From Rhynchobatus australiae (Eukaryota): 64,000 bases of DNA. The DNA lies in contig JAUZTB010000071.1 in the NCBI GenBank assembly GCA_034780895.1, forward strand, positions 14,088,276-14,152,275. Reading direction: 5' to 3'. Position 1 is the stretch's first letter, and each line of letters starts with the position of its first letter. Shown one piece after another: positions 21,001 through 24,000 of this stretch. The position numbers were made by a program.

Positions 21001-24000
21001 GTGCTACACGTTCTTACCACTCTCTGAGTAAAGCTGTTTGTATCGAGCTCCTTACTGGATTTATAAAGTACTCTCTTACATTGATAGCCACTTAGATTGG
21101 AGTCTCCAATATGAGGAATGACCTTTCTAAACCCTTAACAATTTTACAAATTTCTTATTGGGTCACCTCTCAGTTTTCTCTTTCTCAAGCCTCAGCCACC
21201 TCGGCCTCTATTAACGGTTAGAGCCTGTCAAAACAACTATCCTCCTGGCATATTTGCTTTGCACTTTGTTCAGTGCTTTCACATCCTTTTCTAACATGGA
21301 GATCAGCACTGTGTACTGTACTCCTAACTGCAGTCTAACCAAGAGTCCTTAATTTTTTTGGACTTAAAATACGTAAATTTAGTTTTTCAAAAAACATATC
21401 CTTCCATGCTGACATCTCCCTAACCGACCGCTCAGCTAACATTCTTTTTGCTGGAACTATAATTCTCGAATTATGTAACGCAACCGCGGCGTACGTCACC
21501 TCAGAACTGTACATTAAAAGAACGCACTCATTGGCTGTGAGAGCCATCAATCACCGAATCGGTGCCGTATCATTGTCTACTGCGAGTGTCAATCATACTC
21601 CTAGCGTCTCATTAGTCGTTGGAGGAGTCACTCAAAGTGCAGCCTGGACTATGGCGCGCCCAGATCTCGAGAAGCTCAGAAGGCGGAAGTGTGTTACTCA
21701 CTAAAAACATATTAAAATAAATAAAAGTAAAGTTTCCAAAACATATTACTACAACCTAATCTATTTTTGCTAGAATCTAAGTCAATCTATACACCTTATA
21801 TGAATGGCAATGCTATTTCTATATTTAATGCAGGTTCAAGGGAATGTTGTCCTATAAATATATCTTGACGCAACTGTAGTGTTATGTAAAATATTGCACA
21901 CTGAACTCCTTCACACGTTATCTTTTAATGTGGCTCCATTTATAATGTCTTACTGTTTTTCAGATTCTTTCTATCTGGTGTCTTTATAAATTGAGAATCA
22001 ATAAACCGAAAAGTGTAATTTCGCTCCTCCATGTTTCAATCCGCGCAGACTGTGAAAAGGGGCAACGCTCTTGGCTTTTTACAGTTGTCCTACAATCTCA
22101 AAAAACGAACCCGACGATGCACCGTGCCAGTTTAATTGCTGACGATATATCGTGCCAGTTTAACCCCAAACCTCCCTAGCATTATTTGTAGGGAAATATA
22201 AATTAAGCAAACATATTGCGTGATCGGCAGTGGTCCAAATCCCACATTAATTAACATTAGTTGTTTTGCTGAAGTGTTTATGCTAAAAACGAAACTAAAA
22301 CTACAAAAAGCTTCGCGCAAAAGTTGGAAACACTTTTCGTTTTCCTTTTGCAGCGGGCCGGCTCGTGTTTTTTTAAAGGCACCAAAGTCTTCCATATCCC
22401 TTGCATCTAATTTTTTTTTTCCAAATCAAGTTTAATGCATTAGGAATCTTTGAGAAAACCCGCTCATTACCTCCAGATCCCCACTTCCAAATGAGTCCTG
22501 GGCTTTTTTTTCCAAAGTGGCTGACAGCGGGACGGTCACGTTGATGCAAGGGTAAAAAAACAGTCCAGAGGCAAACACAAGTCCCCCGTCCTGCCAGTTG
22601 CAGAATTAGATCGAAAGTAAAAGAAGAGGCCGGAAGACTGGAAATTCCCCCCTTGCGATTTGTTTTCGTGTTTGTTCCTCAGAATTTACAACATCGCCTG
22701 GGCGGGACCCGATCGCCGACTGCGGAAGTCTTTCGCAAACTTTCATTGGCCGCATCGTTTTCTCGGAAATTCATTTTCAGTTTTCACTTCCCTGTTCGCC
22801 CGGCAGCGAGCGAGTGAGTCAGTGTCCATGTCAGTTTCAGCTCCGCCGAGCTCAGCCACCTTGCGCCAGACTCAGCTGGGCGCAGTTGTCAAATATTGTG
22901 GACTCTTGCTATTGGATTGCTCCCTTAGAGGAAAAGAAAGTAACGTATACTTTCCTTGAAATAAATGTTTTAAGGAGACAGGGTTTAACGTTTTAGTTTC
23001 ATATGCTTTGCAGATTTTTTTAAAAAAATCAACAAACTACAGAACTCTGTTAAATTGAAATGTAAGTGGCGAATGGATGTGAAATGCATTCTTTGGCCCA
23101 GACTGACTTGTTAGCACAGAACAGGGCTTTTCTTAAAATAGAAACCCACCCGCATCAACTGTAGTTTTCTTGCGGCTCCTTGAACTGCTAACCGCGGACA
23201 CAGATTGGCTTCTTAAACGAAGGCCGGTGTCTCCGCGCGTCTGCGCCCCAGTGGAGCAAGGTTTCCAGCACCTCTTCACTCTAACGCAATTGTTTCTTGT
23301 TGCGTGCCATTTGCAAACTAATGAAGACTTCAGCAACAGATGCTGAATTCAGAACTCTGTCCCGCAGTCGCTGGTAACTTGCGATGCAGAACTAGGTACC
23401 GTTGCTGTGCCATTTCACCTACATCTCCACTGCACGCCTGTCCTGCTTCTTCGACTCTTTCGTGGGATGTGGGTAGCACTCGCAAGGTCCATTGCCTATT
23501 CCAGAATGGCCCTTTGAAGGGAAGTACATTGCTAGACCATCCGATGGAAGAGATACAAGTCATCAACAGTCTTATGGGGACAGAATATTGCAAAGCCCAG
23601 AGCAAGGATGCGGGTAATACTGGAGAAACAAAGGACTGCAGATGCCGGGATCCGGATGAAAAAGACGATGATGCTGGAGGAACTCAGCAGGCCGGGCAGC
23701 ATCCGGGGAGGAAAGCAGGTGGTCAACGTTTCGGATCAGGTTTTGACCTGAGACGTTGACCGCTTGCTTTTCTCCACGGATGCTGCCTGGCCTACTGAGT
23801 TCCTCCAGCATCATCGTGTTTCGCAAGGACCTCCCTTCCCAAAGGGCTTTAGTGGATCTTTTGTGAGAAGATCCAATGGTTACATGTTCATCGTTACCAA
23901 TACTAGCTTTTATTTGTTTGCATGAAATTAATTGAATTGCAATTCCCTAGCTGTGGGAATTTGAACTCAAGTCTCCAGGCCATTAATCCAGCCTCAATGT

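What the first reader, a model, noticed from the sequence alone, without database searches (positions are those of the whole stretch)
21400..23500. Orphan CpG-rich double promoter hidden in the intron that splits the ETV4 ETS domain
Seen: this is the only clearly CpG-retaining, largely repeat-free tract in an otherwise CpG-depleted window. It holds two distinct motif clusters about 1 kb apart and is gap-free contiguous with the last two ETV4 exons. I found no coding exon that it would serve. Established: CpG retention in vertebrate genomes marks germline-hypomethylated promoters. Inference: it drives an unannotated nested or antisense transcript, an internal ETV4 isoform, or both bidirectionally.
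Basis: partly seen in the sequence, partly recalled or inferred. Interest (0 to 1): 0.7.

Follow-up and report, generated by a model that had tools for sequence, protein, structure and literature searches.

The report
Orphan CpG island in ETV4 intron
A 2-kb stretch inside an intron of a shark or ray ETV4 gene has kept its CpG sites while the DNA around it lost them; this marks it as an unannotated regulatory island of a very common kind, not as something unusual.

Summary
Window 21400-23500 carries 91 CpG (o/e 0.93, GC 0.43). The rest of the window has o/e 0.17, and the best other 2.1-kb stretch reaches 0.31. The tract lies in the 22.35-kb intron (17937-40290, minus strand) that splits the ETS domain of an elasmobranch ETV4 orthologue.

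It is single-copy within the window. It has no recognisable coding content, no known RNA family, no tRNA, no terminal repeats and no vector match.

It consists of four CpG-dense blocks, not two. Two blocks each carry one GCGGAAGT (ETS-type) and one extended CCAAT box. It is also enriched in poly(dA:dT) runs.

Best reading: a native, germline-hypomethylated non-methylated island of the low-GC type seen in cold-blooded vertebrates, most likely starting unannotated non-coding transcription.

Promoter activity, strand and the "double promoter" idea remain untested. No methylation, chromatin, transcript or cross-species data were reachable. No short ETV4 isoform starting in this intron is annotated.

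This is an ordinary member of a well-known class, so interest is low.

The parts
21400..23500 (.). At the 500-nt scale it extends from about 20992 to 23951.
   Evidence: It holds 91 CpG, o/e 0.93, GC 0.434. It is the only stretch of the window with o/e of at least 0.6 in 500-nt windows.
21400..21702 (.). CpG block 1 (motif cluster 1). It contains TGACGTA on the minus strand at 21492, ATTGG (extended CCAAT box) at 21528-21536, ATGGCG at 21651 and GCGGAAGT at 21683.
   Evidence: The interval measured, 21400-21700, has 19 CpG and o/e 1.06. It meets the 200-nt Gardiner-Garden criteria at 21462-21701. It is flanked by the only two copies of AAAAACATAT in the window, at 21390 and 21703.
21703..21990 (.). 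AT-rich, CpG-poor spacer.
   Evidence: The interval measured, 21701-21990, has 2 CpG and GC 0.29.
21991..22360 (.). CpG block 2, at low GC. It contains a tandem pair of a 23-nt motif at 22113-22135 and 22141-22163.
   Evidence: It has 19 CpG, o/e 1.24, GC 0.41. The motif pair is repeat family D1, 87% identical.
22361..22900 (.). CpG block 3 (motif cluster 2). Four A/T runs of 7-10 nt lie at 22368-22560. The motifs are CCGGAAG at 22630, an NF-kB-like site at 22640, GGGCGG at 22700, GCGGAAGT at 22722, ATTGG (extended CCAAT box) at 22743-22751 and TGAGTCA at 22815.
   Evidence: It has 28 CpG and o/e 0.90. Motifs come, and A/T runs. It meets the Gardiner-Garden criteria at 22458-22984.
22901..23160 (.). 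Second AT-rich spacer, with a T7A7 palindrome at 23015-23028.
   Evidence: It has 4 CpG and GC 0.36. The runs are listed.
23161..23550 (.). CpG block 4.
   Evidence: It has 20 CpG, o/e 0.78, GC 0.515. It meets the Gardiner-Garden criteria at 23055-23568.
23645..23835 (.). Palindromic interspersed repeat at the right edge of the tract. It is not part of the unique island but is still CpG-rich.
   Evidence: The arms at 23661-23738 and 23744-23821 are 87% complementary. Other copies lie near 13805, 18880, 24988 and 38031. It keeps CG at positions where the other four copies have TG or CA (alignment A1). Its only Rfam matches are plant miRNA hairpin models below threshold.
17937..40290 (-). ETV4 intron that splits the ETS domain (22354 nt, of which 1192 are N in five runs).
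   Evidence: The borders are GT..AG. The N runs were left as they are.
40291..40460 (-). ETV4 exon encoding the first part of the ETS domain (...LQLWQFLVALLDD...KLVEPEE).
   Evidence: Pfam Ets scores 40.6 bits against profile positions 1-39. It is 97% identical to S. canicula ETV4.
17835..17936 (-). ETV4 exon encoding the middle of the ETS domain ([34 protein letters not shown]).
   Evidence: Pfam Ets scores 60.5 bits. Splice sites and translation are shown.
15485..15706 (-). Last ETV4 coding exon, including the stop codon TGA.
   Evidence: It is 93-96% identical to elasmobranch ETV4 and 70-71% identical to elasmobranch ETV1.

Best explanation
The tract is a native, single-copy, non-coding regulatory island that has stayed unmethylated in the germline. 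It is an orphan intragenic 'non-methylated island' of the low-GC, high-CpG type found in cold-blooded vertebrates. It sits in the intron of an elasmobranch ETV4 gene that corresponds to human intron 11.

Inferred mechanism. Ubiquitous activators of the CpG-island promoter type occupy two cores, at about 21490-21690 and 22630-22820. These would be ETS/GABP-class factors at GCGGAAGT and CCGGAAG, NF-Y at the extended CCAAT boxes, and Sp1, ATF/CREB and AP-1 at single sites. Poly(dA:dT) runs beside the second core disfavour nucleosomes. Occupancy together with CxxC-protein and H3K4me3 chromatin keeps de novo methylation out, even though the gene body around it is methylated, so the CpGs escape deamination decay.

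The most likely output is initiation of unannotated, probably non-coding and possibly divergent transcripts, with a regulatory effect on ETV4 itself.

Shown: the CpG retention, the position, the lack of coding, RNA-family and repeat signatures, and the motif and A/T-run content. Inferred: hypomethylation, factor binding, transcription and its direction.
For: CpG retention. CpG o/e is 0.93 against 0.167 in the rest of the window, with GC only 0.434 against 0.40. TpG and CpA are not in excess inside the tract (o/e 1.12 and 1.07), against a background rho of 1.31.

Methylation background. Cartilaginous-fish genomes, gene bodies included, are pervasively methylated except at regulatory elements (PMC5437953, passages). 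NMIs of zebrafish, frog and lizard have high CpG o/e with GC near background (PMC3583005, passages). About half of mammalian CpG islands are orphans, and many of them initiate transcription (PMC2944787, abstract).

Motifs and runs. SCGGAAGY occurs 2 times against 0.22 expected (27 of 1000 shuffles reach 2). RRCCAATSR occurs 2 times against 0.29 expected (40 of 1000). Both conditions together are met in 1 of 1000 shuffles, and each core holds one of each motif. There are 7 A/T runs of at least 7 nt against 1.25 expected, P about 3e-4, the densest in the window.

Not a repeat, gene or known RNA.
- 0% of the tract is covered by self-matches.
- No flanking LTR, TIR or tandem array was found.
- 0 of 24 ORFs of at least 45 aa overlapping the tract hit Pfam.
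- Two ORFs gave no homologue.
- Rfam gave 0 matches at gathering score and there are 0 tRNAs.

Protection at the edge. The repeat copy abutting the tract keeps CG where the 4 other copies in the window show TG or CA, although its own arms differ by 13%. This fits long-standing protection reaching the island's edge.
Against: No methylation, chromatin, CAGE or RNA data and no other vertebrate genome could be consulted. Hypomethylation, conservation and genome-wide copy number are therefore all unmeasured.

The motif enrichment is modest, and the motifs were chosen after reading the sequence. Sp1, CRE, YY1, AP-1 and plain CCAAT are not enriched.

No direction or exon can be assigned. Donor-site density is ordinary, poly(A) signals lie on both sides, and GC skew is flat.

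Block 1 is bracketed by the only two AAAAACATAT copies in the window, so it could be an inserted piece.

The dinucleotide signature, even without CG, TG and CA, is further from the window mean than any of 60 background windows. This may reflect the alternation of AT-rich and GC-rich blocks, but it would also fit DNA of different origin.
Confidence: 0.6

Rival explanations
1. It is a Polycomb-bound or poised-enhancer type of orphan island. Under this reading it is unmethylated and kept for ETV4 (or a neighbour) as a docking element that helps enhancer-promoter contact. It would not be a productive promoter in its own right.
For: ETV4 is a developmental transcription-factor gene (identity; function from established knowledge). 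Orphan CGIs are necessary and sufficient for PcG recruitment to poised enhancers and boost them without promoter marks (preprint 10.1101/2020.08.05.237768, passages). Developmental transcription-factor genes carry broad NMIs with H3K27me3 in frog and mouse (PMC3583005). No exon or transcript signal is attached to the tract.
Against: The motif set (ETS, NF-Y, Sp1, CRE) looks more like a housekeeping-type promoter than an enhancer-side island. The rest of the gene body in the window is fully CpG-depleted, so this is not a broad NMI covering the gene. No chromatin data were available.
Confidence: 0.2
2. It is recently arrived DNA whose CpGs have not yet had time to decay: a young non-autonomous transposon, a retroposed piece, or a duplicated promoter fragment from elsewhere in the genome. 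Under this reading it need not be unmethylated or functional.
For: Block 1 (303 nt) is flanked by a perfect 10-nt direct repeat that occurs nowhere else in the window. The dinucleotide signature is an outlier (0 of 60 background windows as distant). Copy number could be judged only within 64 kb.
Against: No terminal inverted or long terminal repeats bound the 2.1-kb tract, and there is no tandem structure. No transposase or reverse-transcriptase signal was found in 24 ORFs. The tract is a mosaic of four blocks and two spacers without internal similarity. An older repeat at its edge, with arms 13% diverged, also keeps CpGs; a recent insertion would not explain that. AAAACATAT-like strings recur a third time nearby (sequence read), so the 'duplication' may be local low complexity.
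Confidence: 0.1
3. It is an internal promoter of ETV4 itself (minus strand) that gives a short protein starting in the exon at 17835-17936. That protein would carry only the second half of the ETS domain plus the C-terminal tail.
For: The tract lies 3.5-5.6 kb upstream of that exon on the sense strand. The exon contains in-frame ATG codons ([10 protein letters not shown]...). Intragenic islands can act as alternative promoters of their host, with SHANK3 as the example in PMC8873577.
Against: Among 80 proteins of 40-128 aa matching the last exon, none is from an elasmobranch or exceeds 84% identity. The short 203-aa skate isoform starts far upstream, at the exon near 54.1 kb. [quoted passage not shown] Half an ETS domain is unlikely to fold (inference).
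Confidence: 0.04
4. It is the promoter of a nested protein-coding gene whose small exons lie elsewhere in the intron or in the N runs.
For: Orphan islands sometimes mark unannotated genes (PMC2944787 abstract). 1192 nt of the intron are N, and exons shorter than 45 aa were not screened.
Against: Of 222 ORFs of at least 45 aa between 15000 and 41000, only the two ETS exons pass a Pfam cut-off. Two tract ORFs have no homologues.
Confidence: 0.04

Closest known systems
Orphan / intragenic CpG islands of mammals (Illingworth et al. 2010, PMC2944787; review PMC8873577)
   Same: Both are dense CpG clusters remote from any annotated promoter and inside a gene body, with promoter-type motifs. The class is known often to initiate transcription of unannotated RNAs.
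   Different: GC content (0.43) is far below mammalian islands. Only sub-blocks pass the Gardiner-Garden criteria and none passes Takai-Jones. Non-methylation and initiation are not shown here.
Non-methylated islands of cold-blooded vertebrates (Long et al. 2013, PMC3583005)
   Same: Both have high CpG o/e with GC hardly above the surrounding DNA, which is the signature reported for zebrafish, frog and lizard NMIs.
   Different: NMIs are defined by experiment (Bio-CAP). No elasmobranch was in that study, and the methylation state of this tract is unknown.
Orphan CGIs of poised enhancers (Pachano et al., preprint 10.1101/2020.08.05.237768)
   Same: Both are orphan islands next to or inside a developmental regulator gene. 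They could recruit PcG and help contact with the gene's promoter island.
   Different: No adjacent conserved enhancer or PcG data are available, and the motif content looks promoter-like.
Intragenic alternative promoters such as the SHANK3 island (as described in PMC8873577)
   Same: Both are islands inside the host gene, upstream of its last exons, on a strand that could give a shorter host transcript.
   Different: The downstream exons here encode only part of the DNA-binding domain, and no such isoform is annotated in any relative.

Membership tests
Classical CpG island (Gardiner-Garden and Frommer; criteria recalled) | At least 200 nt with GC of at least 0.50 and CpG o/e of at least 0.60 | tested here: inconclusive
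   The whole tract fails on GC (0.434) but passes on o/e (0.93). Sub-blocks 21462-21701, 22458-22984 and 23055-23568 pass all three criteria.
Classical CpG island (Takai and Jones; criteria recalled) | At least 500 nt with GC of at least 0.55 and o/e of at least 0.65 | tested here: not met
   No 500-nt window in the whole 64 kb qualifies.
Non-methylated island (Long et al. 2013) | DNA shown by experiment to be free of CpG methylation | not testable with these tools
   No bisulfite or Bio-CAP data could be reached. Skate and elephant-shark methylomes exist (PMC10115646; PMC5437953).
Non-methylated island (Long et al. 2013) | Sequence proxy in cold-blooded vertebrates: CpG o/e well above background with GC near background | tested here: met
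   CpG o/e is 0.93 against 0.167, and GC is 0.434 against 0.40. The pattern is described in the passages read.
Promoter (transcription start region) | Transcription initiation (CAGE or RNA 5' ends) and H3K4me3 | not testable with these tools
   No transcript or chromatin data were available.
Promoter (transcription start region) | A downstream exon, ORF or RNA gene that it serves | tested here: not met
   Pfam gave 0 hits among 24 tract ORFs and only the ETS exons among 222 ORFs across 15000-41000, which covers the whole intron. Two ORFs have no homologues. Rfam and tRNA searches found nothing. No short ETV4 isoform is annotated.
Promoter (transcription start region) | Clustered binding motifs of promoter-type factors above chance | tested here: inconclusive
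   Extended ETS and NF-Y motifs are each reached by about 3-4% of shuffles, and jointly by 1 of 1000. Five other motifs are not enriched, and the motifs were chosen post hoc.
Young transposable element | Multiple copies; terminal repeats or target-site duplication; transposon proteins | tested here: inconclusive
   No other copy exists in the window, no LTR or TIR was found and there are no TE domains. A 10-nt direct repeat flanks block 1 only. Genome-wide copy number is not testable.
PEA3-subfamily ETS gene, ETV4 orthologue (host gene) | An ETS domain plus a PEA3 N-terminal region, and closest to ETV4 rather than ETV1 or ETV5 | tested here: met
   Pfam Ets hits both exons. PEA3_N pieces score below cut-off, as expected for single exons. 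The last exon is 93-96% identical to six elasmobranch ETV4 proteins and 70-71% to elasmobranch ETV1. Exons were searched one by one.

The most novel reading that the evidence does not exclude
The island could be an ERK/FGF-responsive, self-regulated internal control point of ETV4. PEA3-class proteins would bind its own GCGGAAGT and CCGGAAG sites. Sense-strand initiation from it would then yield either a C-terminal ETV4 fragment (recognition helix, wing and C-terminal tail) acting as a natural antagonist, or an RNA whose transcription interferes with completion of the full-length message. It would be conserved across cartilaginous fishes.
Probability: 0.05. Interest if true: 0.55.

Novelty: new member of a known kind. 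Interest (0 to 1): 0.22.

Why it matters
If it is confirmed as unmethylated and active, it adds one regulatory element to the ETV4 locus of a cartilaginous fish. It would also be a clean example that low-GC, high-CpG islands mark regulatory DNA in elasmobranch gene bodies as they do in bony vertebrates. That is useful for annotating shark and ray genomes from sequence alone. It does not open a new question, because thousands of such orphan islands are known per vertebrate genome.

Tried and rejected
Known RNA genes. Rfam at gathering score over the whole window gave 0 matches. At E up to 1 over 20500-24500 it gave only 5 sub-threshold hairpin matches, all on the palindromic repeat at 23659-23824. 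There are 0 tRNAs.

Coding content.
- Pfam on 222 ORFs (at least 45 aa, 15000-41000) and on 218 ORFs (at least 50 aa, elsewhere) found only the ETV4 exons.
- The 112-aa ORF 22621-22956(+) had 8 word-sharing candidates and none scored.
- The 97-aa ORF 22135-22425(-) had 0 hits among 1.84 billion representatives.

Mitochondrial insertion or bacterial DNA. There are no tRNA, rRNA or protein signals, and no long ORF.

Cloning-vector contamination. This was prompted by the AscI-BglII-XhoI-like string at 21653-21671. A blastn 'distant' search of 21350-23550 against 72,556 plasmid records gave no match.

Paralogy of the two motif clusters. The best local alignment score, 18, equals the shuffle mean of 18.07.

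Direction of transcription.
- A recalled, approximate 5' splice-site matrix found 4 plus-strand and 8 minus-strand sites of at least 6 bits in or near the tract. The window density is about 2.3-2.5 per kb per strand.
- Poly(A) signals lie on both strands.
- GC skew is flat to slightly negative, as in the flanks.
None of these is decisive.

Short ETV4 isoform. Nothing relevant was found among 80 short proteins.

Literature. Searches for an ETV4 intragenic island, intronic enhancer, antisense RNA or intron-born isoform found nothing relevant. The enhancer paper PMC13144416 concerns an element in a Vmp1 intron. PMC5347632 is not held.
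Full report
OBSERVATION

The window has GC 0.40 and an overall CpG o/e of 0.20, with 494 CpG. In 500-nt windows stepped by 250, 10 of 255 windows exceed o/e 0.6. All 10 are contiguous, starting at 21001 to 23251, and every other window is at or below 0.53.

The rest of the window, leaving out 21001-23750, holds 389 CpG in 59280 nt (o/e 0.167). The best non-overlapping 2.1-kb window reaches only 0.31. The Poisson probability of 91 against 14.1 expected is about 3e-42. 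TpG and CpA, the decay products of methylated CpG, are near 1.1 inside the tract against 1.31 in background windows.

CONTEXT

The gene is on the minus strand. Three exons have clean AG/GT borders:
- 40291-40460 encodes ...LQLWQFLVALLDD...KLVEPEE.
- 17835-17936 encodes [34 protein letters not shown].
- 15488-15706 encodes VAGERYVYKFVCEPEALFSL...NKGYMY, followed by the stop codon TGA.

Pfam places the first two in the Ets domain, at profile positions 1-39 and 30-72.

The last exon was searched on its own. It is 93-96% identical to ETV4 of six elasmobranchs: Scyliorhinus canicula, Mobula birostris, Rhinoraja longicauda, Amblyraja radiata, Cetorhinus maximus and Leucoraja erinacea. It is only 70-71% identical to elasmobranch ETV1. 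This search scored 526 of 530 candidates, and the best 120 were listed. No hit is identical, so the species is an elasmobranch not represented exactly among the listed hits.

tblastn of three named ETV4 proteins against the window places two further upstream exons near 46.9 kb and 54.1 kb. The 5' part of the gene lies outside the window.

The gene model was searched exon by exon. The joined, spliced protein was not built or searched. The intron that splits the ETS domain is 17937-40290 (22354 nt). It contains five N runs totalling 1192 nt, which were left untouched. In human, the ETS domain is encoded by exons 11-13 (PMC10066307, passage), so this intron corresponds to intron 11. The tract lies 3.5-5.6 kb upstream, in the gene's sense, of the exon at 17835-17936, and no N lies between 11261 and 30180.

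ANATOMY

The tract is a mosaic rather than two clusters:

| Segment | Coordinates | CpG | o/e | GC |
|---|---|---|---|---|
| Block 1 | 21400-21700 | 19 | 1.06 | 0.49 |
| AT-rich spacer | 21701-21990 | 2 | 0.35 | 0.29 |
| Block 2 | 21991-22360 | 19 | 1.24 | 0.41 |
| Block 3 | 22361-22900 | 28 | 0.90 | 0.48 |
| Second spacer | 22901-23160 | 4 | 0.48 | 0.36 |
| Block 4 | 23161-23550 | 20 | 0.78 | 0.515 |

Only sub-blocks meet the classical 200-nt CpG-island criteria, and no 500-nt window meets the stricter ones. The criteria are recalled.

- Block 1 has TGACGTA (minus strand, 21492), an extended CCAAT box (ATTGG, 21528-21536), ATGGCG (21651) and GCGGAAGT (21683).
- Block 3 has CCGGAAG (22630), an NF-kB-like site (22640), GGGCGG (22700), GCGGAAGT (22722), an extended CCAAT box (22743-22751) and TGAGTCA (22815).

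These were compared with 1000 dinucleotide-preserving shuffles of the tract. The extended ETS motif occurs 2 times against 0.22 expected (27 shuffles reach 2). The extended NF-Y motif occurs 2 times against 0.29 expected (40 shuffles). Both conditions together are met in 1 shuffle. Plain CCAAT, Sp1, CRE, YY1 and AP-1 are not enriched. The motifs were picked after reading the sequence, so this is modest support.

A/T runs of at least 7 nt are enriched independently of the motifs: 7 against 1.25 expected, P about 3e-4, the densest spot in the window. Four of them sit just beside block 3. Such runs disfavour nucleosomes (established knowledge, recalled).

The two clusters share no sequence beyond the short motifs.

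WHAT IT IS NOT

- Rfam finds nothing at gathering score in the window. Inside 20500-24500 it finds only sub-threshold hairpin matches on a palindromic repeat. ARAGORN finds no tRNA.
- None of the 24 stop-to-stop ORFs of at least 45 aa that overlap the tract hits Pfam. Among 222 such ORFs across 15000-41000 only the two ETS exons pass a cut-off. Among 218 ORFs of at least 50 aa elsewhere there is only a sub-threshold PEA3_N piece.
- Two tract ORFs sent to the large protein sets gave nothing.
- There are no flanking long or inverted terminal repeats and no tandem array.
- None of the tract matches anything else in the window, whereas 7.3% of the window does.
- A string resembling adjacent AscI, BglII and XhoI sites at 21653-21671 prompted a vector check. 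There was no match in 72,556 plasmid records.
- A mitochondrial or bacterial origin is unlikely, given the absence of tRNA, rRNA, protein or long-ORF signals.

AGE AND PROTECTION

The right edge abuts a palindromic interspersed repeat, with arms at 23661-23738 and 23744-23821 that are 87% complementary. The window holds four other copies. In alignment A1, both arms of this copy keep CG at positions where the other four copies have TG or CA. An element old enough for its arms to differ by 13% that still keeps CpGs fits a long-standing hypomethylated domain reaching the edge. It does not fit a recent arrival of the tract. The evidence is thin: five copies, and the original state of the arms is unknown.

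Against a native origin, the 10-mer AAAAACATAT occurs only twice in 64 kb, at 21390 and 21703, bracketing block 1 (0.39 expected in the whole window). This could be a target-site duplication around a 303-nt insert. However, a similar AAAACATAT string recurs at about 21738, so local low complexity is an alternative explanation.

The tract's dinucleotide signature, leaving out CG, TG and CA, is further from the window mean than any of 60 background windows. The main cause is AA/TT at 1.30 against 1.06. I attribute this mostly to the alternation of A/T runs and GC-rich blocks, but it does not exclude a different origin.

MECHANISM

Cartilaginous-fish genomes are pervasively methylated, gene bodies included, with regulatory elements as the exception (PMC5437953, passages). 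Long et al. found that NMIs in zebrafish, frog and lizard have high CpG o/e at GC close to background (PMC3583005, passages). The tract matches that description.

The best-supported reading is therefore a native orphan intragenic non-methylated island. Factor occupancy at ETS, NF-Y and other boxes, nucleosome-disfavouring A/T runs and CxxC/H3K4me3 chromatin would keep de novo methylation out, so the CpGs survive. By analogy with mammalian orphan islands, many of which initiate unannotated transcripts (PMC2944787, abstract), the most likely output is non-coding transcription from the cores in blocks 1 and 3.

The strand cannot be called. A recalled splice-donor matrix, poly(A) hexamers and GC skew give no asymmetry.

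RIVALS

1. A Polycomb or poised-enhancer type of orphan island serving ETV4 (preprint 10.1101/2020.08.05.237768, passages). The sequence cannot separate this from a promoter.
2. Recently arrived DNA. See the points for and against under 'Age and protection'.
3. An internal ETV4 promoter. The downstream exons would give only the second half of the ETS domain. Among 80 short proteins matching the last exon, none is elasmobranch or above 84% identity. The 203-aa skate isoform starts near 54.1 kb, not in this intron.
4. A nested coding gene. Nothing was found, but exons under 45 aa and the N runs remain unscreened.

COMPARISON AND NOVELTY

The tract works like, and most probably is, an orphan intragenic CpG island or NMI. 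This class has thousands of members per vertebrate genome (PMC2944787; review PMC8873577, passages). Formal membership needs methylation data, which could not be obtained here.

Searches of the held literature found nothing on an ETV4 intragenic island, intronic enhancer, antisense RNA or intron-born isoform. So this is a new member of a known kind, not a new kind.

LEFT UNCHECKED

- No vertebrate genome, transcriptome or epigenome collection was available.
- Conservation of the tract in other chondrichthyans, its copy number in its own genome, its methylation and its transcription are therefore all open.
- Supplementary files were not opened. Those of the skate genome paper may hold ATAC and methylation tracks that bear directly on this locus.
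Unnamed short hits, whose origin is unknown, were not fetched or used.

Noticed in passing
window 23645-23835 (other copies near 13805-13897, 18880-18943, 24988-25026, 38031-38076): A palindromic, hairpin-forming interspersed repeat with a conserved core (...GATGCTGCC..CTGAGTTCCTCCAGCA...) is present at least five times in 64 kb. It draws sub-threshold matches to plant miRNA hairpin models in Rfam. It looks like a MITE-like family of elasmobranch genomes (family name not established here).
   Followed up: partly
window 21390-21399 and 21703-21712: The only two copies of AAAAACATAT in the window bracket CpG block 1 (303 nt). This may be a target-site duplication of an inserted piece, or local AT-rich low complexity, since a similar 9-mer recurs near 21738.
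   Followed up: partly
window 21653-21671: The string GGCGCGCCCAGATCTCGAG reads like adjacent AscI, BglII and XhoI sites (site names recalled). It has no match to plasmid records, so it is probably a coincidence of CpG-rich palindromes.
   Followed up: yes
window 22113-22135 and 22141-22163: There is a tandem pair of a 23-nt motif (GACGAT..A.CGTGCCAGTTTAA, 87% identical, 28-nt spacing) inside CpG block 2. It may be a doubled binding site; the factor is unknown.
   Followed up: no
window 20846-21348 (minus strand) and 26542-26816 (plus strand): The ORF fragments resemble, from memory, the C-terminal end of a CR1/L2-like LINE ORF2 (...FTQRVV...). There was no Pfam hit and no nucleotide match between the two. 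The left one ends exactly where the CpG-rich tract begins.
   Followed up: no
window about 54099-54182 (minus strand): This ETV4 exon is present in the 479-aa shark proteins but absent from the 455/457-aa ray and skate isoforms (P0001 and P0005 against P0002, P0003 and P0006). It is also the start of the 203-aa Amblyraja isoform X2, so it is an alternatively used exon.
   Followed up: partly
window 24490-24745 and 40313-40524: These are the only other places that meet the 200-nt CpG-island criteria. The first lies in a stretch where about half the bases match elsewhere in the window, with o/e about 0.5-0.6. The second is the first ETS-domain exon.
   Followed up: no
window 21471-21498: TTATGTAA (a D-box / PAR-bZIP-like octamer, consensus recalled) lies 14 nt from the CRE-like TGACGTA in block 1.
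   Followed up: no
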